Shown in pieces: positions 5,018-48,157 of a stretch of DNA of 54,653 nt. The position numbers and the translations under genes were made by a program. Position 1 is the first letter of the stretch, and every line of letters starts with the position of its first letter. The DNA is from a virus. Lineage: Duplodnaviria; Caudoviricetes. Under the pieces are notes generated by a model, which worked only from the letters and a program-made list of their open reading frames with translations, was not told where the DNA came from and ran no database searches. Location: the IMG/VR virus record IMGVR_UViG_3300021368_000936, positions 1-54,653 of that record, one strand, 5' to 3'.

Positions 5018-5038
5018 ACACACAACAGAGAAACACAG

Positions 5039-5515: not shown

Positions 5516-5527
5516 CAGTATAGCACA

Positions 5528-5560
5528 GGGGCGGGGGGACAGTTAATGCCCCCTTGCCCC
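5528..5560. other. GC-rich hairpin at the early/late boundary
   Basis: GGGGCGGGGGG...CCCCCTTGCCCC inverted repeat in an intergenic region. Confidence 0.6.
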
Positions 5561-5717
5561 CCTAGCGCCCCCGCGCCGAGCGATCCCAAAAAAGTACCTT
5601 CTTTCTAACCTACAAACGTTTCCAGACGAGCGATAAATATTAAGAGGGAAATCGAGAAATCAAAACAACTCGAAAATAAAAAATTTCCCAGGTATCAAAC
5701 GCCCTCAAAAGTCGATC

Positions 5718-5957
5718 ATGAAACACAAAGTAACTTACAGAACGCCTAACGGCGTATTGCAGGAAACCATGTTTGATCAATTTGATGAATTTTGTGACAA
5801 CATGGAGGACGTAGCAGCACAATATTACCAGGGACTGAAAGAACCTGGAGATGTCAACATTGAATCAGTATTAGACGATGGAACAACAAGAGGAGAGAAA
5901 GTTTCATTCGATGGAAGAACTGAATTCCTATCTGAGCAACATGAAGCTGATGTATAG
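5718..5957 (+). CDS. Hypothetical protein, 79 aa
   Basis: ORF track; downstream of TAAATA 5634-5639. Confidence 0.7.
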   Translation: MKHKVTYRTPNGVLQETMFDQFDEFCDNMEDVAAQYYQGLKEPGDVNIESVLDDGTTRGEKVSFDGRTEFLSEQHEADV

Positions 5958-6063
5958 ACCTCCTGGTGGGGACTATATGCTTCTGACAGACTATCTGAAC
6001 ACCATAGAAGAACGCTTAAGGAGGTTGGAAGGTGGCACAACTAGTAATACCGACAACGGTTGA
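5911..6063 (+). CDS. Hypothetical protein (MEELNSYLSNMKLMYRPP...)
   Basis: ORF track gives 5878..6063; the internal ATG 5911 reduces overlap. Confidence 0.6.
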   Translation: MEELNSYLSNMKLMYRPPGGDYMLLTDYLNTIEERLRRLEGGTTSNTDNG

Positions 6064-27000: not shown

Positions 27001-29164
27001 TTCTGTTTCTGATGGCAAGGTATACAACTGTGAGGTTTCTCTCTCAGGAAGGGGATATACCGAACCACCATCTGTTGTTGTAAAGGGTGTTGGTCTTGGT
27101 GCTGCTGGTGCTGTTATCGAATCTGTTATTGAGATTGATACACCTGCTGTAAGAATGGGTATTGCTATTGATTCTGACGGTGTTACCGAATCTACAACCC
27201 CAACCAGATTTAACTTCAAGCACCCTGTATTCCTACAAAATGATACTGAGTATGCTCTTGCTATTGAGACAGACTCGATTGAATATGAACTATGGGCATC
27301 CAAACTAGGCGAGGTTGAAATTGCTACCAGTAACATTGTTACTACACAACCTTCACTAGGTTCTGTTTATAAGTCTCAGAACACTGACACTTGGACCGAA
27401 GATCTATTTGAAGATATTAAGTTTACTCTATACCGTGCTGAGTTTAGCACCACAGATGGCGAAATTGAAGTTACCAACGAAAATCTAGGTTATGAGAAAC
27501 TACAGGTTTCTCCTTTTGAGACTAGTGTGAGATCTGCTACTAATGCTACATCCACCCTGTTCAAAAATAACAACTCTGTTGTCAAGGTTTATCATAGAGA
27601 TAATGGTTTCGAAACTACTGGCGACTCTTATGTATTCTTCCAAGAAGCAGAAGACGTTGGTGGTATCTCTGGCGTTACCTTGAACCAGAGACTGTATAAA
27701 GTTTCTAACTCTGGTATTGATAGTTACAACATTACAAGTCCAAATGGAGCTGGTTCTAGCATCATTGGTGGTGGTAAGTCTGTTCTTGCTTCTTACAATA
27801 GAAAGTTCGAGCGTCTCTATGCTCAAGTTCCTTATCTACAACTAGATGGCACAAAGATTGAGTCGTTTGTTGCTACTACTGATGTAGTTCCTGTTGACTC
27901 ACCAACTAAGAACTATGTTTCTTATTCCTTTGTTGACTATGAGAAGACATTCCTTGGTGAAGAACACTTCTTTACTAATCAGAAAGTAGTTGCTTCTAGA
28001 ATTAATCAGACTATGAATGGTTTGGCACATTCACTGAAGTATAAGTTTAGACTGTCCACATCAAACTCTGCTCTGTCTCCTGTTATTGATCTACGTACTG
28101 CTACGGTCAAGACAGCATCTAATAGAATTGAAAATGCTACTGGTTATGAAGACAGATATGGCAAGAGAGATCAGATCGTCAAGTTCCAACCTCTCTACAC
28201 TTTGTCTATTGCTGTTACTGGAACAAATGCTGGTCAAGTAGATGCTAATCTAACTTTGGTTGGTCAGACTTCTAAGGCAGAAGGATTTATCACTAACTAT
28301 GATAGTGGTGATGCTACAATTAGATTGAGAACTTTCACTCCATTCCAACAGGGCGAACCACTAGACCTCATTGGTACTGATGGTGTTCAAATTCAAAACG
28401 TTGGTATTACTATCACCAATATTTCTGAAATTGATTTCAACTTCAGTGTAGGTTCTAATGTGATTGCTTATTCTCAAACAGACTCTACTGTTAGTTACGC
28501 TAATAAGATTAATGGTAAGGTTATTCTTTGGGATGCTGAAGATAAGATCCTAATTGTGGAAAACTCTTATCAACCAATCAACAACAACTATACTGCTAAG
28601 GTTGCTGATGGTGAAGCATACAATAGAGCAACAACAACATCTGCTCAACAACCTGATATCTTTAGAGTTGGTGATGTGGTTCAATCAACTGGTGATGACA
28701 TCCCTGTGTTTGTAGAACTCAACACAATTGACTACACTACAGGTGTTGATTATGTTCCAGAAACAGATGCCGTCAATAGTTCTTCGGTTGCTAAGTATGT
28801 AACCAAGGAAGTATTCATCGACAATCCTGGTTCTTCTATTGATGTAAGATCTACTATGAATCTTACCGATATTGAGAATGTTAAGATTTACTATAAGATT
28901 AGAGAGTCTTCCAGTTCGGCAAACTTTGACGATATTAACTGGACTCCATTCAATGTTAATGGCAACCCAGATGTAGAAAACCTTGCTACTCCAACCAACT
29001 CCATTTCTGGTCAGTTTGAGAAGCAAGTAGATTACCAAGAACTAGTTTATAGTGCTTCGAATCTACCCGAATTTACATCATTCGCTATTAAGATTATCAT
29101 GAAGACTGATAATCCTTCTTATGTACCTAAGATCCAAGACCTAAGAGCTGTAGCTTCATACTGA
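21092..29164 (+). CDS. vrlC: VrlC-like / DUF4815 virion structural protein (2690 aa)
   Basis: NLNVAPYYDD...VLFRPG..IQTRELT, APGAHR, LARRTYDESGDY, RYTMKDIGKLEKRIERLEYYT and NPLAQTF motifs. Confidence 0.85.
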   Translation: MPQKTNLNVAPYYDDYDAGKNFYKVLFRPGYSIQTRELTSLQSILQNQIESFGKFNFKQGQQVIPGEVGLNTKLDYVKLSSVSEVAVNEGGQIVYKKYDIKKLVGTQLSGLNSGVVGRVLSAEYGSDIEADTLFVKYTTSGSASNETTFRQGETLEVIGGINTPLLVVGTDGSVLPTSINIEDPISGQISTLTSPAMGFATAVDVQEGVYFVNGFFVRNEKQLLVVNKYYNKPSAKVGFTVSEDVVTPEEDASLTDNARGFSNSSAPGAHRLSINLTLTKFDYTANTDKNFIQLVQIKNGTVEKQVKPADYTLLEETLARRTYDESGDYVVEDFDYDVREYYQRSGNNGVYALNTETGLINKTYTETEAEGKMVLHVSSGKAYVKGYEIINKESKTLEVSKGRDTLQRDNVTIKSKGLSEFNVTNVFGGVPLNSVGDISTGYPSVSLNSVFNDGTIGFSGLEPDGYFRDTVSRRSQVFNLKDGIMTIYVQSLVDQPVATSDLPDEIFFVTTRGTGTVQGKRATVIGKAIVNRPEVNPASNAVFGELTILGDKSVLDNFMKEYDDGETDYRRYIYTSETLMETSSNPYGVVVDYNPSFTPIVGVSKPKNFRMISRGSGFNPDSDIILSKGRSASTTPYNATFGFSYFNPVFFTRLKLEKKIIADTFKKGKYIYGKESKAYGVIENDTTGNFSGISTLFVTTLSGQFIPGETIIDEEQNAIKIAKENTISHFVVNKRGSNYNDASSVVINGEIFDQSKVDVVLYGGAVVQVLVEDRSALQQTYATPPDILFTSDDSNSDKAVVTPVLFKDTVLTFTPQNVKSLSSTFNNYTFTADVDFSSTTYANYKQISDFTFFGTKGKKFIECNGFGADLTGDLIQGDIIQFTDANNNVIKNIVQYVTLPQNTEKSRIYFDYALPDNVTNATIVRLRPVLANSSATLVFPTGSKQVASLVNDDANTKFKYHVRKDFVTDLSASGGNLTFTAQLPVGTQKFVPFTENNFLITVLSKGSSTVVENGDIIYIDPRYIVVEDSVITASSVTAGALRIQNLPSDYFGVITDSNFPVLKLTATVEIDKARPRLKTAIRNKRVIVVSSGDRVIPIRGQDYDSDVIETFSYSDVFKLKYVYEGTATNPPVVDPAGNLVSGTDVTYKYKFDNGQRDTYYDVSRIVLKPGFDAPTGQLVVAFDFFEHSQGDFCTVDSYLHEAGVLPDEIPLFNSAVNGVISLRDSIDFRPKVDGNTTITGFQDQSIVEAFDTTDYITFLGTGGIPTATPANDAGLPYTVSFSEKQYLDRIDGLFLTKKGDFIIKEGNASLNPSKPEPVDDAVSLCYLHIPAYTNNSKDVRIVPVDNKRYTMKDIGKLEKRIERLEYYTTLSILEQQALNMQVKDEIGLDRFKSGFLVDNFEAHRTGNLKSDDYRCAIDTQQSVLRAQTKEDSFVLKEINTRDDQRVVNGYVINNGVVTLPYENVELLGNANATNTINPNPFVVIQYVGEGVISPQQDSWYDQSIAPLVVDTNTKLNTIFLAKDVVADAYSSLYNSFIVNWCGTDAGLLPIESLAGINSEDIESTVEPASIASSSNVSPQNNEVGKGVGTRTINNRKVSTALQFFARSIPVKFVMNRLKPDTKVYVFMEGRNIDRWVVPDSRFSGQAGNSLSTFGAPLVTDSNGNLSGIILVPAGLPPVSNTRWTGNVDTVNYDETGEEIRFSTGTKTIRFTSASDDADKSGVDTYAEVKFYAAGITPENPASITSTATSFFKANEGVQLVDSNTDDPVKPNPLAQTFKIENFDGGVMTTGVDLFFSKKSKSIPLRAYLTDIAAGKPGKNIIPGTQVSLTPETYLRVYVTGESETVTINLDEIVTGKSSNAAGPIAKVFDSNLVRVGDDTSTSFQLNKEQVYTLVLNNHNGTSFIANESLSIPSVTTYNNLNNTTLGVFIAKDSGKVTDLKVSAVGDNYETASITIESPQLPGGSSATGSISVSDGKVYNCEVSLSGRGYTEPPSVVVKGVGLGAAGAVIESVIEIDTPAVRMGIAIDSDGVTESTTPTRFNFKHPVFLQNDTEYALAIETDSIEYELWASKLGEVEIATSNIVTTQPSLGSVYKSQNTDTWTEDLFEDIKFTLYRAEFSTTDGEIEVTNENLGYEKLQVSPFETSVRSATNATSTLFKNNNSVVKVYHRDNGFETTGDSYVFFQEAEDVGGISGVTLNQRLYKVSNSGIDSYNITSPNGAGSSIIGGGKSVLASYNRKFERLYAQVPYLQLDGTKIESFVATTDVVPVDSPTKNYVSYSFVDYEKTFLGEEHFFTNQKVVASRINQTMNGLAHSLKYKFRLSTSNSALSPVIDLRTATVKTASNRIENATGYEDRYGKRDQIVKFQPLYTLSIAVTGTNAGQVDANLTLVGQTSKAEGFITNYDSGDATIRLRTFTPFQQGEPLDLIGTDGVQIQNVGITITNISEIDFNFSVGSNVIAYSQTDSTVSYANKINGKVILWDAEDKILIVENSYQPINNNYTAKVADGEAYNRATTTSAQQPDIFRVGDVVQSTGDDIPVFVELNTIDYTTGVDYVPETDAVNSSSVAKYVTKEVFIDNPGSSIDVRSTMNLTDIENVKIYYKIRESSSSANFDDINWTPFNVNGNPDVENLATPTNSISGQFEKQVDYQELVYSASNLPEFTSFAIKIIMKTDNPSYVPKIQDLRAVASY

Positions 29165-34158: not shown

Positions 34159-37100
34159 ATGAGCTTTAAGTTTAATTCTGACAGGGAACAATTAAGAGCT
34201 ATTGCTCCATCTTTAATTGGAGATGAGGTACTTTCAATTAGGTCTGGCACAGGCGCTGATGAGAAAGAGGTACTTAGGACTCTGCTTGACCCCGACACGA
34301 AACTGCCACGTGTTGGTATCAACAGAACTGGTAGCAGAATTGACAGATATGTAATCACCAACCAAGGTAGTGGGTATACTCAATTACCTAGTGTTACTGT
34401 AGCTGCTCCTCCTCCTGGTCCTAATGCTCGTCAAGCATTTGCTTCTGCCTCTGTATCCGCTGAAGGTAGAGTTACTGGTCTTCTAATCGATGATCCTGGC
34501 GATGGTTACACTTCTGCTCCCGCCGTATCAATTACTGGTGGTAACGGAGCTGGGGCTGATGCTGAAGCATTCCTAGACACTGTTGACTTCGAACTTGATA
34601 TCAACGGTGCTATTAGAACTTCTACGTCTATCATTTCTGACACGGCGAGAATTCTAAACCTAGATATCGACAACCTCGTTACTCCAGATGCTCAGCTAAG
34701 AGCACCAAATCTCAAAACATTTATTAACAACACAGGTACACAATGGGTAGCAGATAAGTTCTACCAAAAAGATTCCTTTGTTGTTCGTGGTCCTAACGTA
34801 TACCAGGCACTAACTACTGGTTATTCTTCTGCCAATCCTCTAGATCCTCCTCTACATATTGACGGTATCCAGACCAATGGTAATTCTCTAGACGATCTTA
34901 CTAGACCTGGCGTATCATTTAAACACATCGGTTTCCGTGTAGCTGACGAGAACGAAGTATACTATAACGAAACTGGTGAAGCAGGTATCTACCCAAGATC
35001 TATCACTCCTCTGCTCGGTGATAAATCTGATAAGATTGCTACCACAGAATACGTCCTCAACCTAGCAACGAATGACGTTGGTGGTCGTATTTACGTTTCA
35101 CAGCAGATTGGTTCTGACCTAAACGACGGTCGTTCTGCTGTTAACCCAGTTAGAACTATTAAGAAAGCATGTCAGTTGGCATGGCAGACTCCTGGTGTTA
35201 AAGAATCGATTATTATCTCTGGTGGTGACTACACAGAAGATAACCCAATCTCAATTCCACCAGACGCTTCTATTGTTGGTGACAACCTACGTCTGGTTAT
35301 CATTCGTCCTTCTAACCCAAGAAAGCACATCTTCAAGTTCGGTGACAAGAACTACGTCATCGGTGTTACATATCGTGACCAAGAAGGTGCTGATACCTTT
35401 ACTTGGGACTTTGCTATGGTCTTTGACGACAAGCAAAGAATCACATATGCTGCCGACACAAATGGTGACTTCGGCACATCATTCCCTGTAGGTACACAAG
35501 TCTTTGGTGAAGATGCTTTCCGAGCAGACTTCCAGGATAATGGTGGTCTATCTTCTCTCGTCGCTGGCGTTGAGATGAGAGGTGTTAATGGTGGTGTCAT
35601 TGAATCTACTAGAGTAGAGTTTGATGCCATCACAGGAGCATCTGCTTACATTACTGGTGAGTTTGATTATAGGAATATTTCTGGTGGTATCACTGCTGGT
35701 GAAACACTATCTTATGGTGGTGCCAATACTTTAAGATTTGCTCCAAACACAGCATACACAGTAGGTCAAATTGTTTGGACTTCTGATCATACATACAGCG
35801 TTTCTGCCGCTGGTACTTCTGGAGAAACCAACCCAACACACGATGCTGGTGCTGCTGGTAATGGTCCAGACACTCTGGAGTTTACATATATTAGAGACAC
35901 TTATACTCTAGTTACTACAGATGTTATCTCGATTAGACCTGAAGGTGAGGTCGTATTCGAGGATATTCCAAACCCAGAAGCTCCTGCTCTACCTATTTAC
36001 AGAATTGACTTTTCTCAGCAGGGTCAAGATGCAATTGCTACTGGTGGTTATCAGGATCCTGGAACACCAGAAGATCTTGGTGGTATTATTTTCTACACCA
36101 ACGCTCTACAAGGTGCCGACAACATTCACGACTTCAAAGAAGGTCAAGAAATCTTCATCGAAGGTCTATCGACATCAGCACCTGACCTCTCGATGCTTAA
36201 TGGTATCCAGAGAATCTACAAGGTCATTGAAGACCCTGATGGTAGATCAAGACGTTTCGTCATTCCAAAGAAACTACCACTACTAACAAATGACAACTAC
36301 GATCCTGGTCAGTTTGCTGCCGTAAGATCAGTTGCCAAGTCGGTCACTCTATCTCTACTCAACTCTCCATTTAAGTTCAACCAAGCAAATCCTGTTGCTA
36401 GAAGATATCAGGATGCTTGTCTACAAATTAAGAACAATAGAGAGTTCATCGCTGATGAAGTTGTAGGTCGTATTAATGATGAGTTCAAAAAAGAATATTT
36501 CTCGATCTATGATATCGGTGGTTCTGCTGCCCAGCAATTCACTCCAACTAACGTAACCTATGATCCTGCTACAGGTATCTCTACGTTTACTGTAGCAAAC
36601 CATGGTCTAGTAGCTGGTGATGGTGTATCCATTGCTGACAACTCCTTGGTGTTCACTTGTGCCATGGATGGCAATAAGACTGAGCACAGTTCTCCACAGT
36701 CTGACTACTACTCCAGTGGCAAGGCATTGCCAGTTTTGAGCAGTGGTTTAACTACAAATACATTCCAGTTGAATGTAGGTGTTTCTGGTCCTGATCAACA
36801 GTTCACTCCATCAGATGCTGTATACAATCCAGCTACTGGTGATTTGACAATCAACCTCAATACTACCCACGGACTAGACGTTGGCGAAGGTATTGTAATC
36901 GATGATAACTCCTTGTCATTCACATGTGACATGGATAATAACCAGTCTACTAAGACTTATCCACGTCCTGGCATCGACCCATACGCTGGCAGATCTATCA
37001 ACATCACTGCTGTTCCTTCGGACACAGAGATTACAGTTAATGTAGGTGCCTCTGCTGCTAACAAGTATTTCACACCTTCTGCTGCTGACTATAACCCCGT

Positions 37101-40100
37101 AACTGGTGACATGACGGTTACTGTCGGTCAGCATGGTCTAGGTGTTGGTCGTAGTGTTGTCCTAGCAGATGAGTCTTTCACCTTCACCTGTGATCAGGAT
37201 AATAACCAGACTCAGCATCAATATCCACGTCCTGGTGTTGACCCATATGCTGGTCAGTCTATCGCTATCACAGCAGTTGGTACAACTTCCCACACCCCAA
37301 CAGACGCTCCTTATGATGCCGCCACTGGTATTGTTGAGTTCACTATTGCTGGTCATGGATTTACTCAAGGCGACTACATCAAGATTGCTGACGATTCTCT
37401 AGATTACACATGTGTTCTAGATGGTAATACCGTAACCAAGTCTTATCCACGTGCTGGTTATGACTATCCATCTGGTCGTTGGTTGGAGATCTCCAACGTA
37501 ACTGGCGATACGTTTGAAGTTAACATTGGTCCATCTTCTTACACTGGAGCACACACTTTTGTAAGTGCTGATCCAAATGCTATCGAGAGACAAGACGGCA
37601 CCTTCACTATCAATGTTGGTACATCTTCCAATACCACAACCCATACATTTATCAGTGCTACTACCAACGCTATTAAGCACGAACCTCAGTCTACACATAC
37701 TTTCGTTGGTACAACTGCTAACTCTATCAAGCACCTACCACAGTCTGCTCACACGTTTGTAAGATCAGCAACCAATTCTCTATCTGTTGGTGGTGATGAA
37801 TTCAAGGTCTATCTTGGAACATCCAGATTCATCCACACGTATGTAAGTGGTGGTACGATTACATTTGGTGGATCTTCTTATAACGTCACTAATTTCGTAT
37901 ATGATAACTTCATTACTGGTACAGCAACTATCACGATTGATACCTCTATTCCTGGTATCTCGGAAGATAATATCGTTCAACTTGCTGGACTTATAGTCGA
38001 GTGTGATATTGATGGCGTTACTACTCAGAAGACTTATCCAAGCTTCAACATTCCAGTCAGTGACGACAAGTGCCGTAGAGATGTTAAACACTTCCTCAAT
38101 GCTCTAACACAAGACCTTGAGTTTGGAAGCAATAACAATATTCTCGATTCTGCTAAGAAGTATATTGATGGTACGAATACTGAAATCACATTCGTAGAGA
38201 ATGAGATGATTCAGACTGTCCGTGCTATTGAGTACGCCAGAGAACTAGCAATCTTCGCTATGAGAAAGTGGAGAACTGGTAATGGCATGGCAGGCGATCC
38301 AATTTATACACCACAGTATTCAACTCTACCAAGATACTTTGACGATACCATTATTGATGACGGCAACAACCCTGCTTGTGACAACGTAAGATCTGCTATC
38401 GATACTCTATCGTATCTCTTCGTTGACGTTCTTGCTAATAACGCTTCTGGTACATATCTAGACGCCGCTTGGTTGATTGCTAGAAACAGACATCACATTG
38501 CTGATGAAGCATACAACGCTGCTATTGTTCAGTTCCCAAATCTAGCACTAGTTAACATTGATGAGAGAAAGTGTCGTAGAGATATTAACTTCATCCTCTC
38601 TGCTGTAATTAGAGACCTTATCCTAGGTGGTAACGCTGGTATTGTAGAAGCTGCCGAGTCTTACTTCACTGGAACTCAACTAACTGGTGTCCCACAATCT
38701 GAGTTGGGTGCTACGATCTACGCCTTCAATGAGGTAAGAGATCTTGCTATCCAAGCAATGAGAAACTGGAAGGATGCTTCTGGTAATAATATTGGTGCTG
38801 CTTTGTACACACCAATCCCAAGATTTACTGACAGCAGTATTCTTCCCGATCCTAATGGCAACCCATTGTGTGCCAACGTCGAATCTTCTATCACAACAGC
38901 ATTCGCTTTCCTAGAAGATGTTCTAGATGGCACCATTCTAAAGGGTGCTACCACAGTTGAAACTGGAACACTCTTCGATACTGTTGGAATCTACACATAT
39001 CCTAGCAGTGTAATTAGAGATGCTGCTGGCAATTACATTACCGTAAGATCTACTTACGATGACCTACCAATTATTGAAGCATCTCCATATACTCAAAACG
39101 CTTCTATCATCTCTAAACTAGGTGGTAGTGGTGCTCTAATTGATGGTTCTAAAGTCAAGAATCCTAACTGCCCATTCCCTGGTCTAGAACTAGACGGAAC
39201 AGCATCCTTCCCCAACCAGGGTAAGTCGATGGTTGCTTCTGCCTTCACGATCGTTTCTGAAGGTGGTACTGGTTATAAGATTATCGAAGATGGTTATGTA
39301 CAGTTGGTTTCGGTCTTCTGTATCTTCACCACTGATGGTATTCTTGCTGAGTCTGGTGGTTACGCTTCTGTTACTAACTCCGCTTCTAACTTCGGTCAGT
39401 TTGCTCTAAGATCTACTGGTTTCAGAAGAGAGGCATATGAGTTTGACGTTGCTCAGATCACTAACGTTTCTTCTACTCCAACTGGCAGAACAATCTTGTC
39501 TGTTAGTGGACTTGGAAGAGAACCACTTGAGCACTATGTTGCCAAGATTGATGGTTTCGAGAATGTCAACCCTGATATTGAATACTTTATTGACGTTGTA
39601 GAAGGCGTCACAGTTGGTCCTCCTTTCTCTGCTCAGATTACTCTTGAGTCTGGTTCTGGTGGTCCTGCTGAATTTAAAAATATTTCTACAGGTAACGTTA
39701 TTGCTCTGTCAGCTCTGGTTGGTGAAACCGTCAGACTACACAGACCATCTATCGTTAACTCCTCTTCCCACACCTGGGAATACGCTGGTTCTGGTACTAG
39801 CTACCTTGCTCTACCTGAAAACGGTGGTGTTAAGATCGAAGCAAACGAGCAAGTCTCCGAGAACTATGGTAGAACATACGTCTCTGGTACTGACGAACTA
39901 GGTGACTTCAAGGTTGGTACATTCGCTAGAATTGAGAACAGAACTGGTAACATCACCTTCACGGGTACGGTTACGATCTCGGAAGTTGAATTCTTGAAAC
40001 TGAAAGGTGGTGACGTTGTTGTTACTGGTTTCGACAACAGCAACACACTGGGTGGTGCTAACGCTACCGACTCCAAACTACCAACACAGAAGGCGGTTAA

Positions 40101-43100
40101 GGACTTCATTACAAACAACCTTGGTCCCTTCATCAACAAACCATATTCTACGAACCCAGTTCCTAGAGCACTGGTTGAACTTACTGACTCTGGTAAGATC
40201 TCCGAAGATCAGATTCCACCTCTACGTCCTTTCCAGGTCTTCACTGTTGCTGACCAGGCAGAAAGAGTTGCTATCGAAGGAGCACTTGCTGGTGACATCG
40301 CTATCCAACAGGATACATCAACGTCATTCATTCTAAACAATGATAACGATAGTTTGTTCGTATCGTTCCCAGTAGACACCACTCTACAATTTACTATCGG
40401 TGATGTCTTTACTGGCGATGTATCTGGTGGTAAGATTCAGGCAACTGAATACAGACAAGGTGTTGTATATCAGATTAACATCACTGATGGTGGTTCTGGT
40501 TACATCACACCTCCTGTTGTTACTGTATCTGGTGGTAATCCACAAGCAGGTGCTGTCACAGCAAATATCACAACCGAGATTGCTAACGGTCAGGTTGTTA
40601 TCATGAACATTGAGTTGTTCAATGGTTTCGTTGGTGGTAAAGGATACACTACACCACCTACCATCACTATTGCTGCTCCTGCTGGTTCTGGTACACAAGC
40701 AACCGCTAATGCTTTGATTGAAAGCAGACTCTATGGTGATATCGTTAACAACGTTAAGATTGTTGATACTGACACTATCGAATCTAGTGATCTCCCAGCA
40801 GAGACAATTAACATTACTAGAGTTATCAATACTTCTGCTTCTGATATCAACAACTGGGTATCTCTATCATCTAATCAGATCGCTGCTAGTGACATTACTT
40901 CTGGAACTATTTCAACTGCTCGTCTAGCAACTAACGCTGCTGGTTCGGAATCTGCTGCTAACTCCTTCACCTTCCTAAGAGGTGACCAAGCATATGCTCC
41001 TGCCGTACAAACAATCAAGGGTCCTGAGACTAGATACTTTGCTAAACTCAAGACTCAAGCAAACAGCGGCGCTTCTCAGCTGATCTTTGATTCTAACTCG
41101 AACTTTATTAAGGGTCATGAAGTTATACAAATTACTGGTATTCAGTCTGACACTAACATTGATGGTGTTCTAACTGAAGCAGGTGAGACCACTGTTACTC
41201 TAGACAAGTTCTTAACAGCAACTCTATCTGCTGGAACAGTTCTAGAATTCAACAGAGGATCTTCCCCACTAACCTTCGAATCTTCTCAGACTCAAGGTGA
41301 ATTCGTTGAACAGATTGTTATTCAGAATGGTGGTCAGGGCTTCGATGCTGGTCCATTCTTCAACGTTCCTCTCGCTGGTGGTAACGGAACAGGTCTGAGA
41401 GTTAACATCATCACAACTGGTGGTGTAGTTACCGACGTTACTATCGTCAATGGTGGCGAAGGATATGGTCAGAATACCAGTCAACAGAACGTTGACTTTA
41501 TCGTATCTTCCGCTCCTTCTGAGATTGGACCTGGAACGGGTCTAGTCCTACTAGCAAAAGTAACTACAGTTCTAAGACAGTATGCTAACGTTGCTGTTGA
41601 TATCAACAGAGTTACTGATCTAACTACATCTGGTGATGCCTACGGTACACTTGGTGTTGCTAGATTCCTCAAGCAACAGTTCTTGATTGGCGAAGCAGGT
41701 AACGGTTCTGTTGCTATCAACACTGGTCCTGACTCTGGTCTTGACGCTGACACCCTGGACGGTGCTCAAGGTTCGTTCTACCTGAACGCAGGTAACATGA
41801 ATGCTGGTACTTTGCCTGTTGATAGACTATCTGGTACGTACAACATTAACATTTCCAACCAGTCTGGTAGTACCCTCAGATTGAGAACTGCTACCAGCAC
41901 TCCAACAGGTAACCCAACACCAGACCAGTTTGCTGCTGGTATCATCGCTGATACCAAGAACAATAACGCCGACAACCTCTTTGACGGTGGCACCAGACAT
42001 ATGGTGATGACCCTAAGAAATGGTGGTACTGACTTTGACGCTACCTTCGGTGGTGTTAGACAACTCGCCTTCACCGATGGTACTGCCAGCAATGGTGGTA
42101 ACATGTGGATTCGTGGTTCGTTCAACAGTCCAGCAAACCAGTTTGGTGACTGGTATAAGATTTGGAGTTCTGGTAACCACGGTGAACTCAGCGGACTAGA
42201 CGCTGACAAGATGGATGGTCGCCAAGGTAAGTGGTATCAGACTGCCACTCACATTAACTACGGATACTTCAGTGACAACCGTCTACCAAAACTTCAAACT
42301 GAGAAGGACATCCTCAAGACATTCAGACTCCTTGATTGGACTGGTACTCCTAGATACAATGTTCTTGTTCGTGACGAGCTTCTTAACGCCGCTCCATTCC
42401 AAGTTGGTACACCAGTCAACTTGTATGACAATGGTGGTAACGGTGTAGGTGAAATCACCCTAACCAAGGTAACACCTGTACAAGACGTTAACGACGCTGC
42501 CAACAACTACACAATGTTGACTGGTAGTTTGACATCGGGTGATTTTACTGATGCCAACGGTAACCAGGACGCCTTCTTTATTGGTACTGGTGGTGTTGCC
42601 AACGCTTTTGCTTTCCAAGACTGGGGAGTTTCTCCAGTTGATCAAGATGCTGATGGTAGAGCAGATGGTACATTCGAAGTTGCTGAACTAATCAGTGACG
42701 GTGGTGCTGCTCAATTGAAACTAGGCAGAGTTGATGGTCAAGTATCCACTTCTCCATCGATCTACTTCAGATCTTCTCAGCAAGCATCTAGCACTTACAA
42801 CACAGCAATTATTGCTTCTGGTGGTTCTGGTGGTCAGGGTGATGGTGCCCTAGAACTCAAGGTTGGCACTGCCAACTCCTTGACTGTAAATGGCAACATC
42901 ATCTGGAATGCTGCTAACGTATCACCCACCGTACAAAACATTGGTTCTGTTTATACAGGAACCAATAGTTCTGACTTTGATCCTGCTAACCCAGAAGACA
43001 ACGTAACTCTAAGAAACGTTGTCATGAGAGATCTCAATGGCAACTTTACTGCTGGAACAATTACTGCTTCTTTGACTGGTGCTGCTTCGGACAACGTTCT

Positions 43101-44337
43101 GAAGGCAGGCGATACAATGACTGGGGCTCTAACCATCACCAACGTTGTTGCTGCTAACCAAGCACTGAGCGTATCTGGTAGAGCAGACTTCTTGAGCAAT
43201 ATCACAGTTTCTGAAGATCTAACAGTTGATACAAATACATTCCACGTAGATGCCACAGACAACTCAGTCTGTATTGGTACTACTTCTTCTGATTCTTCTC
43301 TCAAACTACTGATCACCGAGACTGGTGCTCAAGATGCCATCATGAGAATGTATGGTCAATCAGTTAGCGGTACTCAGTATGACCCAGTAATTCAAATGCT
43401 AGGTCAGGGTAATAATCCTACTGAAGAAGGTTTTGAACTAAGATATGATAATTCTACTGGTGAAGTATTCTTCAAGCAACTGTTTAGTGGTATTACTACC
43501 ACATCAGCATTTGTGTTCAGCACTGCTAACTTCAGCAATGCCCTAGAAATTACTGGTAACGGTAATTTGGGTATTCAGATGACGCCAGCTGATGCCTATG
43601 AACTGGATGTCAACGGTAACATTAGAACCGAGACATCATTGACTGTTGGTTATGCCAACGCCAACGCTGGTGCTACTATGGTATTCGGTGGTGCCACTGG
43701 TGCTGCTCTATCTACCCCAACTGCTGCTCAGTCTCAGATCTCTAACTTCAGAATTGGTAACCAACTATCTACCAGTGACGTATTTGAGATTACTGCTAAC
43801 GATGGAGCATCTGGTTCTCTAGTTTGGAAAGCGACTCCAGCACTTGCTGTTCAAGGTTCTTACAACAGAGTTGCTATTAACACTGATCAGTTTGGTGGAG
43901 TTGACCCTGAGGATAATACCCAGAGATATTACAGTCTGAATATCCAGGGTGACATGAATATCAACGGTCTTGTCTACCAGAACAACAGTGAGTTTGTTAC
44001 CTCACGTTGGACCGAGGCAGATAATGAAGCCGATATCTACAGAGACTCTAAAGTTTGGATCAACCCAGACATTAATGTCAATGGATTCACTGGAAACCCA
44101 ACATACGATCTACAAATCGGTGGTGGAACTGAAAATGGTGACCTAGGCATGACTGGCATCTTGTATGTCAACGATGCTGCTCAGTGGATTGATACCTTGG
44201 GTATCATTAAGACTAACCCAGACACGATTGCTGAAGATGTCACAATCCCAGCAAACACCAACGCCACCTCCGCTGGTCCAATCACCATTCCAAACGGCGT
44301 AACCATTGATGTTATTGGACAATGGTCCATCGTCTGA
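34159..44337 (+). CDS. Giant tail-fibre protein (3392 aa): interrupted beta-helix, nested beta-domain stalk, two phycobiliprotein-like domains, SGLDAD fibre motifs
   Basis: IYVSQQIGSDLNDGRSAVNPVRTIKKA beta-helix cap; SGLDADTLDG and SGLDADKMDG; C-terminal SAGPITI...WSIV. Confidence 0.85.
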   Translation: MSFKFNSDREQLRAIAPSLIGDEVLSIRSGTGADEKEVLRTLLDPDTKLPRVGINRTGSRIDRYVITNQGSGYTQLPSVTVAAPPPGPNARQAFASASVSAEGRVTGLLIDDPGDGYTSAPAVSITGGNGAGADAEAFLDTVDFELDINGAIRTSTSIISDTARILNLDIDNLVTPDAQLRAPNLKTFINNTGTQWVADKFYQKDSFVVRGPNVYQALTTGYSSANPLDPPLHIDGIQTNGNSLDDLTRPGVSFKHIGFRVADENEVYYNETGEAGIYPRSITPLLGDKSDKIATTEYVLNLATNDVGGRIYVSQQIGSDLNDGRSAVNPVRTIKKACQLAWQTPGVKESIIISGGDYTEDNPISIPPDASIVGDNLRLVIIRPSNPRKHIFKFGDKNYVIGVTYRDQEGADTFTWDFAMVFDDKQRITYAADTNGDFGTSFPVGTQVFGEDAFRADFQDNGGLSSLVAGVEMRGVNGGVIESTRVEFDAITGASAYITGEFDYRNISGGITAGETLSYGGANTLRFAPNTAYTVGQIVWTSDHTYSVSAAGTSGETNPTHDAGAAGNGPDTLEFTYIRDTYTLVTTDVISIRPEGEVVFEDIPNPEAPALPIYRIDFSQQGQDAIATGGYQDPGTPEDLGGIIFYTNALQGADNIHDFKEGQEIFIEGLSTSAPDLSMLNGIQRIYKVIEDPDGRSRRFVIPKKLPLLTNDNYDPGQFAAVRSVAKSVTLSLLNSPFKFNQANPVARRYQDACLQIKNNREFIADEVVGRINDEFKKEYFSIYDIGGSAAQQFTPTNVTYDPATGISTFTVANHGLVAGDGVSIADNSLVFTCAMDGNKTEHSSPQSDYYSSGKALPVLSSGLTTNTFQLNVGVSGPDQQFTPSDAVYNPATGDLTINLNTTHGLDVGEGIVIDDNSLSFTCDMDNNQSTKTYPRPGIDPYAGRSINITAVPSDTEITVNVGASAANKYFTPSAADYNPVTGDMTVTVGQHGLGVGRSVVLADESFTFTCDQDNNQTQHQYPRPGVDPYAGQSIAITAVGTTSHTPTDAPYDAATGIVEFTIAGHGFTQGDYIKIADDSLDYTCVLDGNTVTKSYPRAGYDYPSGRWLEISNVTGDTFEVNIGPSSYTGAHTFVSADPNAIERQDGTFTINVGTSSNTTTHTFISATTNAIKHEPQSTHTFVGTTANSIKHLPQSAHTFVRSATNSLSVGGDEFKVYLGTSRFIHTYVSGGTITFGGSSYNVTNFVYDNFITGTATITIDTSIPGISEDNIVQLAGLIVECDIDGVTTQKTYPSFNIPVSDDKCRRDVKHFLNALTQDLEFGSNNNILDSAKKYIDGTNTEITFVENEMIQTVRAIEYARELAIFAMRKWRTGNGMAGDPIYTPQYSTLPRYFDDTIIDDGNNPACDNVRSAIDTLSYLFVDVLANNASGTYLDAAWLIARNRHHIADEAYNAAIVQFPNLALVNIDERKCRRDINFILSAVIRDLILGGNAGIVEAAESYFTGTQLTGVPQSELGATIYAFNEVRDLAIQAMRNWKDASGNNIGAALYTPIPRFTDSSILPDPNGNPLCANVESSITTAFAFLEDVLDGTILKGATTVETGTLFDTVGIYTYPSSVIRDAAGNYITVRSTYDDLPIIEASPYTQNASIISKLGGSGALIDGSKVKNPNCPFPGLELDGTASFPNQGKSMVASAFTIVSEGGTGYKIIEDGYVQLVSVFCIFTTDGILAESGGYASVTNSASNFGQFALRSTGFRREAYEFDVAQITNVSSTPTGRTILSVSGLGREPLEHYVAKIDGFENVNPDIEYFIDVVEGVTVGPPFSAQITLESGSGGPAEFKNISTGNVIALSALVGETVRLHRPSIVNSSSHTWEYAGSGTSYLALPENGGVKIEANEQVSENYGRTYVSGTDELGDFKVGTFARIENRTGNITFTGTVTISEVEFLKLKGGDVVVTGFDNSNTLGGANATDSKLPTQKAVKDFITNNLGPFINKPYSTNPVPRALVELTDSGKISEDQIPPLRPFQVFTVADQAERVAIEGALAGDIAIQQDTSTSFILNNDNDSLFVSFPVDTTLQFTIGDVFTGDVSGGKIQATEYRQGVVYQINITDGGSGYITPPVVTVSGGNPQAGAVTANITTEIANGQVVIMNIELFNGFVGGKGYTTPPTITIAAPAGSGTQATANALIESRLYGDIVNNVKIVDTDTIESSDLPAETINITRVINTSASDINNWVSLSSNQIAASDITSGTISTARLATNAAGSESAANSFTFLRGDQAYAPAVQTIKGPETRYFAKLKTQANSGASQLIFDSNSNFIKGHEVIQITGIQSDTNIDGVLTEAGETTVTLDKFLTATLSAGTVLEFNRGSSPLTFESSQTQGEFVEQIVIQNGGQGFDAGPFFNVPLAGGNGTGLRVNIITTGGVVTDVTIVNGGEGYGQNTSQQNVDFIVSSAPSEIGPGTGLVLLAKVTTVLRQYANVAVDINRVTDLTTSGDAYGTLGVARFLKQQFLIGEAGNGSVAINTGPDSGLDADTLDGAQGSFYLNAGNMNAGTLPVDRLSGTYNINISNQSGSTLRLRTATSTPTGNPTPDQFAAGIIADTKNNNADNLFDGGTRHMVMTLRNGGTDFDATFGGVRQLAFTDGTASNGGNMWIRGSFNSPANQFGDWYKIWSSGNHGELSGLDADKMDGRQGKWYQTATHINYGYFSDNRLPKLQTEKDILKTFRLLDWTGTPRYNVLVRDELLNAAPFQVGTPVNLYDNGGNGVGEITLTKVTPVQDVNDAANNYTMLTGSLTSGDFTDANGNQDAFFIGTGGVANAFAFQDWGVSPVDQDADGRADGTFEVAELISDGGAAQLKLGRVDGQVSTSPSIYFRSSQQASSTYNTAIIASGGSGGQGDGALELKVGTANSLTVNGNIIWNAANVSPTVQNIGSVYTGTNSSDFDPANPEDNVTLRNVVMRDLNGNFTAGTITASLTGAASDNVLKAGDTMTGALTITNVVAANQALSVSGRADFLSNITVSEDLTVDTNTFHVDATDNSVCIGTTSSDSSLKLLITETGAQDAIMRMYGQSVSGTQYDPVIQMLGQGNNPTEEGFELRYDNSTGEVFFKQLFSGITTTSAFVFSTANFSNALEITGNGNLGIQMTPADAYELDVNGNIRTETSLTVGYANANAGATMVFGGATGAALSTPTAAQSQISNFRIGNQLSTSDVFEITANDGASGSLVWKATPALAVQGSYNRVAINTDQFGGVDPEDNTQRYYSLNIQGDMNINGLVYQNNSEFVTSRWTEADNEADIYRDSKVWINPDINVNGFTGNPTYDLQIGGGTENGDLGMTGILYVNDAAQWIDTLGIIKTNPDTIAEDVTIPANTNATSAGPITIPNGVTIDVIGQWSIV
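36532..37790 (+). repeat. Four ~90-aa internal repeats with four clustered closing strands
   Basis: (F/H)TP....Y...TG....T...HG.......DD/DNSL.FTC..D.N.....P four times, then HTF(V/I)....N(A/S)(I/L) four times. Confidence 0.85.
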
Positions 44338-45940: not shown

Positions 45941-46601
45941 ACTACATAATGTGTTTTCCATACCTGTGTGGAAAACAAAAATTACTGAATCTGATTACAA
46001 CAAAAAATTAATTCTCAACGAAATGCTGGACAACTTTAAAGTTGATCCAAAGAGAAACACTTGGGATAAGGTGATGCCCACTACTATGAAAAGTGTGTGG
46101 CATCATTCTAATAATGATGAAGATGATAAAAGATTCACAAATATCAGTTACGAAGAGTCTGGACTTACTAAAGTAATAGATTCTAGAATTAGAGAATTCT
46201 TTTCTCATTGTAGATTCATATCTGATGTAAACTACTTCTTCCAGATTACAAACTACACTGTATCTACAGAGGGTTATTTCTTGACTAGTCATGGGCACGG
46301 ACAGGACTCATTTAGTTCTGTGTTGTTCTTACAATATGATAAGTTCAATCATCCATCGACGTATTTTAATAATCCATATTCAGCAGCAGATCAAACACGC
46401 TGGTTACAAAAAGATCTGTATGATTCTATTGATCACAGCGATCCATTCTTTAGTTACTTCCAAGATGTATGGTCTATTGAAACTGAAGAAGATGACTACA
46501 TGATCTTTCCTGGTCATGTCAAACATGAAGTTCCTACTGTAGGAAAATCAGACAAAGAACGTGTTACTATTTCCTGTAATATTAAAGTGTACAAATCATG
46601 A
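45933..46601 (+). CDS. Putative 2OG-Fe(II) oxygenase (TIGR02466-like, HxH)
   Basis: VFSIPVW, HGH...SSVLF, IFPGHVKHEV, RVTISCN; start corrected to ATG 45933. Confidence 0.8.
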   Translation: MSELHNVFSIPVWKTKITESDYNKKLILNEMLDNFKVDPKRNTWDKVMPTTMKSVWHHSNNDEDDKRFTNISYEESGLTKVIDSRIREFFSHCRFISDVNYFFQITNYTVSTEGYFLTSHGHGQDSFSSVLFLQYDKFNHPSTYFNNPYSAADQTRWLQKDLYDSIDHSDPFFSYFQDVWSIETEEDDYMIFPGHVKHEVPTVGKSDKERVTISCNIKVYKS

Positions 46602-48157
46602 GCAAGATCATTAACGAGATAACTGTTGTCGGCGGTGGTAGTGCTGGGTGGATGACTGCTTCAACTCTTGCTAGGTTTTTTCCTAACAGAAAAATTACAG
46701 TTATTGAGAGTCCTGATATACCTATTGTCGGTGTAGGAGAAAGCACCTTAGGTCAAATCAATCATTGGTTGTATGCTTTGGGAATCAATGATGATGATTT
46801 CATGAAAGAATGTGATGCTTCGTATAAGTTGAGCATCAAATTTACAAACTTTTATAAGAAGGATGATGGTGGATTCCATTATCCTTTTGGTGCTCCATTT
46901 ATGAAGGACACTGAACTGGGGTATAACGACTGGGGTCTTGTAAAACTATTGTATCCAGCAGTCCCTAATATTGATTTTGCTCGGTGTTACAATCCTGCCA
47001 CTACTCTGGCAGAAAACAACAAAATCTCTATGAACACCAGAGGTGAGTTTGACAATTTCAATTTCAAGAAAGATACTGCTTATCACTTTGATGCCGTAAA
47101 GTTTGGTCAGTGGTTGAAGAATAATTATTGCCTTCCTAGAGGTGTAGTTCTAATCAACAAAAATGTTGAGAATGTAATTACAAATGATGATGGTATTGAG
47201 AAGTTGATTCTTGATGATGGTTCAGAACATACATCAGATCTATTTGTAGATTGTACAGGATTCAAGAGTCTTCTCTTACAGCAAGCAATGGATGAGGAGT
47301 TCATTTCTTATGAAGACATTCTGCCGAACAACAAAGCATGGGCAACTAAACTTCCATACACAAATAAGGACGAACAACTAGAACCATTCACAAACTCAAC
47401 TGCTCTATCTAATGGATGGGTTTGGAATATTCCTCTTTGGAGTAGGATTGGTACGGGATATGTTTATAGTGATAAGTTTACAACCAAGGAAGATGCCCTA
47501 GAGGAATTCAAGCAATACCTCGGTAGAGACGATTTAGATTTCAAAGAAATCTCTATGAGGATTGGTATCCATAAGAGAACCTGGGTAAAGAATGTAGTTG
47601 CTATTGGTCTGTCAGCAGGGTTTATTGAACCACTAGAAAGTAATGGTCTATTTACTGTCCATGAATTCTTACTTAAACTAGTCAAGTCTCTGTCCAAAGA
47701 ATCAATCAATCAGTTTGATAGAGACACATACAATCTGGTCACCAGAGATATGTTTGATGTCTTTGCTACCTTTGTATCTCTCCACTACAAATTGAGTGCC
47801 AGAGATGACACAGAATACTGGAGGTATGTTACAGAGAAGAGTGTGGAGAGAGAAGAGATCAATCGTATTCCTCAACTACAATCAGACTTCAGGAATCTTG
47901 CTCAAGCAAAGATGTACAACGAAGAGTTTGTATTGAATAGTGGTACACCTTATATTGCTATGGGCATGAACTATAGTATAATTAATGACCAGACTCTACT
48001 ATCATGGGAGTATTATCAAAATAAAAATTACAAAGAGATTGCTGACAGAGCGTACACTATGTTTAACAAACGAAAGTATTTGTGGCAACAGGCAGCATAC
48101 ATCTGCCCAACATTGAACCAATTTTTGGAAAATAAATATAACAGTGAGGTCGTTTAA
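46598..48157 (+). CDS. prnA: Flavin-dependent tryptophan-halogenase-family protein
   Basis: GGGSAG, VGVGEST, ASYKLSIKF (catalytic Lys), WVWNIP and FIEPLES motifs. Confidence 0.92.
   Translation: MSKIINEITVVGGGSAGWMTASTLARFFPNRKITVIESPDIPIVGVGESTLGQINHWLYALGINDDDFMKECDASYKLSIKFTNFYKKDDGGFHYPFGAPFMKDTELGYNDWGLVKLLYPAVPNIDFARCYNPATTLAENNKISMNTRGEFDNFNFKKDTAYHFDAVKFGQWLKNNYCLPRGVVLINKNVENVITNDDGIEKLILDDGSEHTSDLFVDCTGFKSLLLQQAMDEEFISYEDILPNNKAWATKLPYTNKDEQLEPFTNSTALSNGWVWNIPLWSRIGTGYVYSDKFTTKEDALEEFKQYLGRDDLDFKEISMRIGIHKRTWVKNVVAIGLSAGFIEPLESNGLFTVHEFLLKLVKSLSKESINQFDRDTYNLVTRDMFDVFATFVSLHYKLSARDDTEYWRYVTEKSVEREEINRIPQLQSDFRNLAQAKMYNEEFVLNSGTPYIAMGMNYSIINDQTLLSWEYYQNKNYKEIADRAYTMFNKRKYLWQQAAYICPTLNQFLENKYNSEVV

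What the first reader, a model, noticed from the sequence alone, without database searches (positions are those of the whole stretch)
36490..38045. Russian-doll nested domain stalk inserted into the first phycobiliprotein-like domain
Seen: four homologous beta-domain starts occur at ~36532, ~36796, ~37063 and ~37288, but only the fourth is contiguous with its closing strand (AHTFVSADPNAI). The missing C-terminal parts follow in a cluster: GTFTINVGTSSNTTTHTFISATTNAI completes unit 3, STHTFVGTTANSI unit 2, and SAHTFVRSATNSL unit 1. A fifth, circularly permuted copy (YFSIYDIGG [insert] DEFKVYLGTSRFIHTYVSGG...VYDNFITG...LIVEC...KTYP) encloses them, and it sits between the first helix and the KCRRD helix of the helical domain. 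Inference: serial domain-in-domain insertion builds an out-and-back stalk projecting from the fibre, with length tunable by unit number.
Basis: partly seen in the sequence, partly recalled or inferred. Interest (0 to 1): 0.78.

Follow-up and report, generated by a model that had tools for sequence, protein, structure and literature searches.

The report
Nested beta-domain arm in cyanophage fibre
A giant tail-fibre protein of a T4-like cyanophage carries five copies of one small beta domain inserted one inside the next like Russian dolls, a rare way of building a protein arm whose size differs between related phages.

Summary
The finding lies in a 3392-aa tail-fibre ORF (34159..44337, +) of a T4-like cyanomyovirus. 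Profile searches find four bodies of a ~101-position unit. Only the fourth is complete. Bodies 1 to 3 stop at profile positions 81, 83 and 72. The three orphan pieces that follow start at 72, 84 and 83, which is last-in-first-out order. A fifth, circularly permuted unit encloses them and sits between helix 1 and the KCRRD helix of a weakly phycobiliprotein-like domain.

In 121 homologues, breakpoints are complementary in last-in-first-out order in 149 of 183 multi-level runs and in first-in-first-out order in 0. Eight natural homologues carry the permuted unit alone, uninterrupted. The same site holds 0 to 19 units, at about 104 aa per unit.

Unit 4 alone folds at pLDDT 96. The three open bodies and the three closing pieces, folded as two chains, dock with score 0.66 against 0.00 for the best control, and the best contacts join body 3 to the first closing piece.

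No coordinates were available, so the stalk shape is inferred. The closest analogue is the nested SBHM array of cyanobacterial RNA polymerase Si3. I rate it a new variant of a known kind.

The parts
34159..44337 (+). Giant tail-fibre gene (3392 aa), orthologue of Syn1_101
   Evidence: ORF. PHROG 5342 'tail fiber protein', E 0, 4757.9 bits. Matches at 72% nt identity a Syn1 CDS annotated as tail fiber protein, which lies between gp8 and gp13.
36391..36495 (+). Helix 1 of helical domain 1 (aa 745-779)
   Evidence: AF2 helices at aa 748-759 and 761-775. jackhmmer finds the paralogous helix at aa 1433-1452.
36496..36525 (+). Base (permuted) unit, first strand YFSIYDIGGS (aa 780-789), equivalent to profile positions ~62-71
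   Evidence: Strand at aa 780-787 in the model. In 8 homologues this strand runs straight into the FK.YLG strand. The permuted order, profile 61-98 then 2-61, is seen in 5 of 5 uninterrupted homologues tested.
36535..36795 (+). Unit 1 body, open (aa 793-879; profile 2-81)
36799..37065 (+). Unit 2 body, open (aa 881-969; profile 2-83)
37066..37287 (+). Unit 3 body, open one strand earlier (aa 970-1043; profile 2-72)
37288..37596 (+). Unit 4, complete and contiguous (aa 1044-1146; profile 1-101)
   Evidence: E 1.9e-45. Folds alone at pLDDT 96.0, pTM 0.86.
37597..37686 (+). Closing piece of unit 3: F.INVG strand plus HTF strand (aa 1147-1176; profile 72-99)
   Evidence: The 25 best contacts of the two-chain fold join it to body 3.
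37687..37740 (+). Closing HTF strand assigned to unit 2 (aa 1177-1194; profile 84-99)
   Evidence: The assignment rests on last-in-first-out order and linker length, which is inference.
37741..37791 (+). Closing HTF strand assigned to unit 1 (aa 1195-1211; profile 83-98)
   Evidence: The assignment rests on last-in-first-out order and linker length, which is inference.
37792..37878 (+). Base unit, FKVYLG and HTY strands (aa 1212-1240; profile ~74-92)
37879..38067 (+). Base unit body, placed last by circular permutation (aa 1241-1303; profile 2-62)
38068..38448 (+). Rest of helical domain 1, from the KCRRD helix (aa 1304-1430)
   Evidence: Helices in the model. 40% identical to domain 2.
38449..38949 (+). 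Helical domain 2, uninterrupted paralogue (aa 1431-1597), weakly phycobiliprotein-like

Best explanation
Residues 780-1303 of this cyanophage tail-fibre protein form a recursive, same-family domain insertion.

Architecture. A circularly permuted copy of a ~100-aa beta domain is inserted in the loop between helix 1 and helix 2 of a helical domain. Unit 1 sits in the hairpin between the base unit's first two strands. Unit 2 sits in the loop before the last (HTF) strand of unit 1. Unit 3 sits in the same loop of unit 2. Unit 4 sits one hairpin earlier in unit 3. The chain therefore runs outward through four bodies and returns through three closing pieces in reverse order. Each piece completes the sheet of the unit it left. 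These steps are shown at the level of sequence and prediction.

Consequence (inference). Every junction between units is crossed by two chain segments, and both ends of the array lie at the base. That should give a stiff side arm rather than beads on a string.

Variation. Relatives carry 0 to 19 units at this site, so arm size varies between phages.

Function (inferred, about 0.35). The arm carries adhesin-like beta barrels that reach the host surface, and unit number modulates reach and valency during adsorption.
For: In this protein: bodies end at profile positions 81, 83 and 72. Unit 4 covers 1-101. The following pieces start at 72, 84 and 83.

Stack parse of 121 proteins: 563 of 794 pairings are complementary within 4 positions in last-in-first-out order. 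The figure is 261 of 794 in first-in-first-out order. In 200 shuffles the mean was 0.44 and the maximum 0.475.

Innermost triplets (open piece, complete unit, continuation): 196 of 247 are complementary (null mean 123, maximum 139). Among 80 distinct triplets (at most 70% identity), 56 are complementary (null mean 16.6, maximum 31 in 2000 shuffles), with inserts of 100-118 aa.

Multi-level runs: 149 of 183 are consistent with last-in-first-out order and 0 of 183 with first-in-first-out. These include other architectures: (83,56)->(56,83), (56,83)->(83,56) and (83,83,72,25)->(25,72,83,83).

Homologues use four insertion sites, at about positions 25, 56, 72 and 83.

At the same helix 1 / helix 2 site, 8 homologues carry the permuted unit alone, uninterrupted (94-105 aa). 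Of 67 insertions of at least 60 aa, 8 have 0-1, 43 have 4-5 and 16 have 9-19 detected bodies. Where all bodies are detected there are about 104 aa per body. Bodies and closing-strand hits correlate at r = 0.96 and differ by 0 or 1 in 53 of 67.

Folds: AF2 on aa 735-1440 gave pLDDT 86.1 and pTM 0.66, with all HTF segments called strands at pLDDT mostly above 90. Unit 4 alone gave pLDDT 96.0.

Two-chain fold of aa 793-1043 against aa 1147-1213, two parts of one polypeptide with unit 4 left out: score 0.66, best of 3 controls 0.00. That mark was reached by 58 of 80 solved complexes and 2 of 110 mismatched pairs. The counts hold only roughly because my own alignments were used. The runs agree in at least 97% of contacts and partner pLDDT is at least 87. 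The 25 best pairs join chain 1 residues 179-247 (body 3) to chain 2 residues 3-26 (the first closing piece). Each body presents the same three stretches to the partner. No solved look-alike was found, so a pass from memory is unlikely.
Against: No model coordinates or full contact map could be read. The pairing of the two outer HTF strands with units 2 and 1 is therefore inferred from order and linker length, not seen. Both units break at the same site, so breakpoints cannot tell them apart.

34 of 183 runs, 24 of 80 distinct triplets and 231 of 794 stack pairings are not complementary. I attribute this to undetected short or divergent pieces. One case was checked: a missed 'HNF' strand fills an 18-aa gap in P0069. 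The attribution is not proven in general.

Open starts outnumber detected terminal pieces, 931 to 762.

A paralogue-type stoichiometry test meant to pair B1 with the last closing strand came out the other way in its crude sums (195 against 129 for the swapped pairing). I judge its classification unreliable.

All structural evidence is prediction. The stalk shape, the oligomeric state and any binding function are untested. The 'tail fibre' label comes from annotation of relatives.
Confidence: 0.82

Rival explanations
1. Ordinary tandem repeats. Units 1-4 are beads on a string that fold without the distal strands, and the HTF cluster is a small separate beta-meander domain.
For: The four bodies are adjacent and the four HTF strands are adjacent. 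DSSP alone cannot tell what the HTF strands pair with.
Against: Contiguous units always include the HTF strand (390 complete units; unit 4). Body 3 lacks two strands and the next piece supplies exactly those two. Breakpoints are complementary at four different sites in homologues. The closing pieces dock on the open bodies, score 0.66 against 0.00 for the best of 3 controls.
Confidence: 0.04
2. Strand complementation is real but not nested. The closing pieces pair with the bodies in first-in-first-out or crossed order, a swapped rather than Russian-doll topology.
For: Units 1 and 2 both break at about position 83, so their two closing strands cannot be told apart by breakpoint. The crude type-count test favoured the swapped pairing, 129 against 195.
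Against: 0 of 183 multi-level runs fit first-in-first-out order and 149 fit last-in-first-out, including runs whose outer levels use different sites. The first closing piece contacts body 3, not body 1. Linkers of 2-4 residues between closing strands, and between the last one and the base unit's strand, leave no room to skip a domain (sequence; inference).
Confidence: 0.05
3. The nesting is real, but the five units pack into a compact knob on the fibre rather than an extended projecting stalk, and unit number changes bulk or valency, not length.
For: No coordinates were seen. pTM 0.66 for 706 residues fits a defined arrangement of either kind.
Against: Long two-stranded connectors are predicted at the unit 3/unit 4 junction (strands aa 1034-1045 and 1142-1152). 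The solved nested analogue Si3 is elongated, 150 by 50 Angstrom (PMC10895346, passages read). Both are indirect.
Confidence: 0.12

Closest known systems
Si3 insertion of cyanobacterial RNA polymerase beta' (nested sandwich-barrel hybrid motifs)
   Same: Copies of one small beta domain are inserted recursively into one another, so several domains are built from distant parts of the chain. The array sits in a loop between two helices of the host. ECOD analysis describes eight domains in a six-level recursive insertion architecture with bifurcating nodes (PMC13114784, passages read). The crystal structure shows four continuous SBHMs (1, 6, 7, 8) and four built from distant chain regions (2-5) (PMC10895346, passages read).
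   Different: The host is a virion fibre protein, not RNA polymerase. No SBHM or Si3 structure appeared among the 50 PDB rows listed for the unit, and no Pfam family passed its cut-off. Here the base unit is circularly permuted, four insertion sites are used, and relatives reach 19 units at one site.
Inserted beta barrels: endosialidase beta-barrel domain (PF12195) and E1 FCCH domain (PF16190)
   Same: These are the weak best matches of the unit by fold (endosialidase TM 0.47-0.49, probability 0.93-0.97; mouse E1 FCCH TM 0.46/0.43) and by sequence (2 of 56 unit sequences each). The nearest named Atlas cluster is E1_FCCH, score 0.92. That both are themselves domains inserted into a host domain is recalled, not tested here.
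   Different: All matches are below threshold (Foldseek E at least 0.02; Pfam E at least 0.011), so membership is not established.
Cyanomyovirus tail-fibre / structural proteins (PHROG 5342; Syn1_101, T4-like gene cluster 1070)
   Same: Full-length orthologues with the same position in the structural module. BFVD models of Synechococcus phage structural proteins contain the same unit at TM about 0.95.
   Different: The records carry names only. My four literature searches for cyanophage fibres, nested domains and domain insertion found no description of the nesting. Supplementary files were not read.

Membership tests
Recursive same-family domain insertion (the architecture class exemplified by RNA polymerase Si3) | A domain's sequence is interrupted by a complete copy of a homologous domain (A1-B-A2) | tested here: met
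   Body 3 = profile 2-72, unit 4 = 1-101, next piece = 72-99. 56 of 80 distinct triplets in homologues are complementary against a null mean of 16.6.
Recursive same-family domain insertion (the architecture class exemplified by RNA polymerase Si3) | Inserted domains are themselves hosts, and closing pieces return in last-in-first-out order | tested here: met
   149 of 183 runs fit last-in-first-out order and 0 of 183 fit first-in-first-out. In the window the order is 81, 83, 72 then 72, 84, 83.
Recursive same-family domain insertion (the architecture class exemplified by RNA polymerase Si3) | Distal pieces physically complete the interrupted domains | tested here: inconclusive
   Prediction only. 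Two-chain fold score 0.66 against 0.00 for the best of 3 controls (mark reached by 58 of 80 solved and 2 of 110 mismatched pairs, roughly, with own alignments). Contacts are listed only for body 3 with the first closing piece. No coordinates of the AF2 model were available.
SBHM / hybrid-motif fold (the Si3 building block) | Fold or sequence match to SBHM domains | tested here: not met
   No RNA polymerase or SBHM entry among the 50 PDB rows listed for the unit, and 0 hits at E <= 0.001. No such Pfam family appeared among 56 unit sequences.
Phycobilisome protein family (PF00502), for the helical host domain | Score above Pfam's gathering cut-off | tested here: not met
   17.8 bits against a cut-off of 22.2, E 0.0033, on helical domain 2 only. 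PDB phmmer: phycoerythrin alpha E 0.003, and 9 of the 10 rows are phycobiliprotein alpha subunits. 8 of the 120 listed homologues carry a precomputed PF00502 hit. This is a resemblance, not membership.
Phycobilisome protein family (PF00502), for the helical host domain | Globin-like fold with a bilin-binding cysteine | not tested
   The fold of the helical domain was not searched on its own.
PHROG 5342 / T4-like cyanophage tail-fibre protein | Full-length profile match and position in the baseplate/fibre module | tested here: met
   E 0, 4757.9 bits. Neighbouring ORFs match baseplate wedge PHROGs 219 and 438. The Syn1 orthologue lies between gp8 and gp13.
PHROG 5342 / T4-like cyanophage tail-fibre protein | Presence in the virion as a fibre | not testable with these tools
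   Needs proteomics or imaging of virions.
E1_FCCH (PF16190), End_beta_barrel (PF12195), DUF7243 (PF23891), for the unit | Score above the curated cut-off | tested here: not met
   DUF7243 scored 17.1 bits against a cut-off of 27. Each of the three families is matched by 2 of 56 unit sequences at E 0.0044 to 0.035.

The most novel reading that the evidence does not exclude
This cyanophage-specific beta barrel is a natural self-inserting building block. Its termini lie side by side and at least four of its loops accept a whole copy. That lets phages grow rigid, even branched, tree-like arms of 1 to about 19 units from one loop of a helical fibre domain.

In one relative (P0021) eight open starts precede the first complete unit. 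That would be nesting deeper than the six levels reported for RNA polymerase Si3.

On this reading, arm size is an evolvable dial for adsorption and host range. The invariant Cys of each body and the invariant His of each closing strand could form a clasp that locks each returning strand.
Probability: 0.3. Interest if true: 0.8.

Novelty: new variant of a known kind. Interest (0 to 1): 0.62.

Why it matters
Recursive insertion of a domain into copies of itself is rare. A survey of 2.7 million domains singles out one six-level case, RNA polymerase Si3, as its extreme (PMC13114784, passages read).

A second, unrelated family in virion fibres would add several things. It has four permissive sites, a permuted base and natural variants from 0 to 19 units. 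Together these give a comparative series for asking how such architectures arise and fold.

It also warns annotators that these giant cyanophage proteins cannot be parsed as tandem repeats. It offers a candidate determinant of adsorption for abundant marine phages. The family is narrow: 725 representative proteins at E <= 0.001 among 1.84 billion.

Tried and rejected
Fold search of the whole 706-residue model against the PDB gave only beta-rich multidomain noise (TM below 0.1).

Fold search of unit 4 against the PDB gave no hit at E <= 0.001.

Pfam on the whole protein gave nothing at E <= 0.1.

A simple count of open starts against terminal pieces per protein is biased. There were 931 starts and 762 terminal pieces, equal in 37 and differing by one in 35 of 121 proteins. 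The 18-aa closing strands are missed when divergent, and the permuted unit counts as an unclosed start. I replaced it with breakpoint tests and with counts inside one insertion site.

The paralogue-type stoichiometry test (B1 with the last closing type, B2 with the middle type) failed in two versions. The first was flawed because the closing-strand models also hit strands inside complete units. The repaired version classified divergent units into catch-all types, and its sums favoured the swapped pairing (129 against 195; both counts equal in 6 against 2 of 65 informative proteins). I treat it as uninformative, and it is listed under evidence against.

A covariation (mutual information or mirror-tree) test of strand-to-body pairing was considered and not run. 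Only 128 unique canonical cassettes were at hand and the closing strands are nearly invariant.

The unit profile found no copy in the other giant ORFs of the window.


Full report
WHERE IT IS. The finding lies in one ORF, 34159..44337 on the + strand, 3392 aa. The protein matches PHROG 5342 'tail fiber protein' over its length (E 0, 4757.9 bits) and no Pfam family at E <= 0.1. The nearest phage records are Cyanophage S-RIM44, Prochlorococcus phage Syn1 and Synechococcus phages Sf-CH11/CH1a, at 71-72% nucleotide identity (8 of 8 matching records). In Syn1 the orthologue (Syn1_101) is annotated as tail fiber protein and lies between gp8 and gp13. The window's neighbouring ORFs match baseplate wedge PHROGs. 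So this is the structural module of a T4-like cyanomyovirus.

A profile built from the four bodies and iterated once on 121 proteins hits aa 793-862, 881-954, 970-1043 and 1044-1117 (E 6.6e-29 to 1.2e-35), and more weakly 1240-1303 (E 1.2e-9). A closing-strand profile hits exactly four places, 1129-1146, 1159-1176, 1177-1194 and 1195-1211. A dot plot shows the same diagonals.

I then built a 101-position profile of the whole unit from 267 distinct units that are contiguous in homologues. Against it:
- unit 1 covers positions 2-81;
- unit 2 covers 2-83;
- unit 3 covers only 2-72;
- unit 4 covers 1-101 (E 1.9e-45);
- the pieces that follow cover 72-99, 84-99 and 83-98;
- the late body covers 2-62.

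The first orphan piece supplies exactly the two strands that body 3 lacks. The next two supply the single strand that bodies 2 and 1 lack. This is last-in-first-out order. First-in-first-out order would need the two-strand piece to come last.

THE ENCLOSING PERMUTED UNIT AND ITS HOST. Helical domains 1 and 2 are 40% identical (E 5e-27). In domain 2, helix 1 is 14 aa from the KCRRD helix. In domain 1 the distance is 520 aa. Across homologues most copies of this helical domain have 4-30 aa (one has 45) at that point. Eight proteins have 94-105 aa, 43 insertions have 4-5 detected bodies (512-536 aa), and 16 have 9-19 bodies (948-2001 aa).

The 94-105-aa forms are the 'empty doll'. The strand equivalent to YFSIYDIGG runs through a short turn straight into the FK.YLG and HTY strands, and then into a body. 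The unit profile aligns first to positions about 61-98 and then to 2-61, in 5 of 5 such proteins tested and in the window's own two pieces. So the fifth copy is a real circular permutant. Units 1-4 sit in its first hairpin.

The 'phycobiliprotein-like' label is only weakly supported. PF00502 scores E 0.0033, 17.8 bits, under the 22.2-bit cut-off, on domain 2. Phycoerythrin alpha scores E 0.003, and 9 of the 10 PDB rows are phycobiliprotein alpha subunits.

TESTS IN HOMOLOGUES. The search found 954 relatives at E <= 0.001 among 2257 scored candidates. The best 120 were used, together with the query.

1. A stack parser over all unit fragments gave 563 of 794 pairings complementary within 4 profile positions in last-in-first-out order, against 261 of 794 in first-in-first-out order. 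In 200 shuffles the mean was 0.44 and the maximum 0.475. It also found 390 complete units, 192 unclosed starts and 23 orphans.

2. Innermost triplets (open piece, complete unit, continuation, all adjacent) were complementary in 196 of 247 cases (null mean 123, maximum 139). After reduction to 80 distinct triplets (at most 70% identity), 56 were complementary (null mean 16.6, sd 3.5, maximum 31 in 2000 shuffles), with inserted lengths of 100-118 aa. The triplets fall into four site classes, at about positions 25, 56, 72 and 83.

3. Among multi-level runs, 149 of 183 are consistent with last-in-first-out order and 0 with first-in-first-out. Three are architectures unlike the window's cassette: (83,56)->(56,83), (56,83)->(83,56) and (83,83,72,25)->(25,72,83,83). 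The other 34 runs fit neither order. Most of these show a 72 read as 83, or an unclassified break.

4. Within the helix 1 / helix 2 site, bodies and closing-strand hits correlate at r = 0.96 and differ by 0 or 1 in 53 of 67 insertions. Where all bodies are detected the length per body is about 104 aa.

Misses are real. Open starts outnumber detected terminal pieces, 931 to 762. In the one discordant case I inspected (P0069), an 18-aa gap held an undetected 'HNF' closing strand that restored the order. I did not check the others.

STRUCTURE PREDICTION. AF2 on aa 735-1440 with 43 homologues gave pLDDT 86.1 and pTM 0.66. All HTF segments are strands at high confidence. Two long strands (aa 1034-1045 and 1142-1152) lie where unit 4 enters and leaves unit 3. 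Coordinates are not delivered, so pairings could not be read from this model. Unit 4 alone folds at pLDDT 96.0 and pTM 0.86, so the unit is a self-contained domain when contiguous.

The score was 0.66 (runs 0.69, 0.66, 0.64) and the best of 3 controls scored 0.00. That mark was reached by 58 of 80 solved complexes and 2 of 110 mismatched pairs. The counts hold only roughly because my own alignments were used. The runs agree in at least 97% of contacts and partner pLDDT is at least 87. This supports docking but does not show it.

The 25 most certain contacts all join body 3 to the first closing piece. Each body offers the same three stretches to the partner: its first strand, the GD.V.I strand and the FTC strand. 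No similar solved complex is known to me, and none appeared in the fold searches.

The pairing of the two outer strands with units 2 and 1 remains an inference from order and from linkers of 2-4 residues. A type-count test aimed at it was uninformative, and its crude sums went the other way.

WHAT THE UNIT IS. It has no solved relative. There are 0 PDB hits at E <= 0.001. The best are FlgT and the LPHT ring, phage endosialidase beta barrels, and the E1 FCCH domain, at TM 0.36-0.49. The same faint names recur by sequence: DUF7243, E1_FCCH and End_beta_barrel are each matched by 2 of 56 unit sequences, all below cut-off, and E1_FCCH is the nearest named cluster in the Atlas. BFVD holds 26 matches at E <= 0.001, and every one that carries an organism name is from a Synechococcus phage. 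The best lie at TM about 0.95. A profile search of 1.84 billion representatives finds only 725 proteins at E <= 0.001, and every one of the 150 listed has at least two matched stretches. The family looks confined to cyanophage virion proteins.

HOW IT PROBABLY WORKS. Shown, at the level of sequence and prediction: the chain leaves the helical domain, lays down one strand of the base unit, and runs out through bodies 1, 2, 3 and the whole of unit 4. It then returns, adding the missing strands of units 3, 2 and 1, completes the base unit, and re-enters the helical domain.

Inferred: because two chain segments cross every junction, the arm should be stiffer and harder to unravel than a tandem array. 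It should project from the fibre. The number of units, which differs among relatives, should set its size.

Function is inferred at about 0.35: extra host-surface contacts during adsorption. This rests only on the virion context and the faint likeness to a glycan-binding endosialidase barrel.

COMPARISON AND NOVELTY. The closest known system is the Si3 insertion of cyanobacterial RNA polymerase. There, SBHM domains are nested to six levels, with four continuous and four discontinuous domains (PMC13114784 and PMC10895346; passages read). The principle is the same. The fold family, the host protein, the permuted base unit and the range of unit numbers differ, and the SBHM membership test was not met.

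Six literature searches found no description of this architecture in cyanophage fibres. For most papers I saw only the listings and abstract starts. Supplements were not read. I rate it a new variant of a known kind.

Noticed in passing
window 38449-38949 (aa 1431-1597), and homologues P0002-P0019: The helical host domain gives consistent sub-threshold matches to phycobiliprotein alpha subunits. In longer relatives it occurs as arrays of 9-13 copies about 110 aa apart. A phycobiliprotein-like module in a cyanophage fibre is curious in itself.
   Followed up: partly
window 36535-38067 (every unit): Each body has an invariant Cys (F/Y-T-C..D) and each closing strand an invariant His (H-T-F) across homologues. 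A metal or other clasp between body and returning strand is conceivable but untested.
   Followed up: no
homologues P0021 (aa 1003-2022), P0069 (aa 1145-1725), P0063 (aa 924-1652): Relatives show deeper and branched nests. P0021 has eight open starts before the first complete unit, and one unit there is split at profile position 24/25 by about 940 aa. In P0063 two successive sub-nests appear to sit inside one outer unit.
   Followed up: partly
loci L019:8422-8733, L008:8413-8742 and others: Many relatives carry a second, contiguous and divergent unit type (no HG motif, 'ASP' in place of YPR) about 335 aa downstream of the first nest. The window's protein lacks it.
   Followed up: no
window 46598-48157 (+): A 519-aa ORF just downstream of the fibre genes matches PHROG 2928 'tryptophan halogenase' (E 1.3e-156).
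   Followed up: no
window 4001-6000: G+C is 0.50 against about 0.40 elsewhere. The stretch holds only short overlapping ORFs on both strands, and no tRNA was found anywhere in the window. Unexplained.
   Followed up: no
window 9387-19115 and 21092-29164 (+): Two further giant ORFs (3242 and 2690 aa) lie in the same module and contain no copy of the unit.
   Followed up: partly
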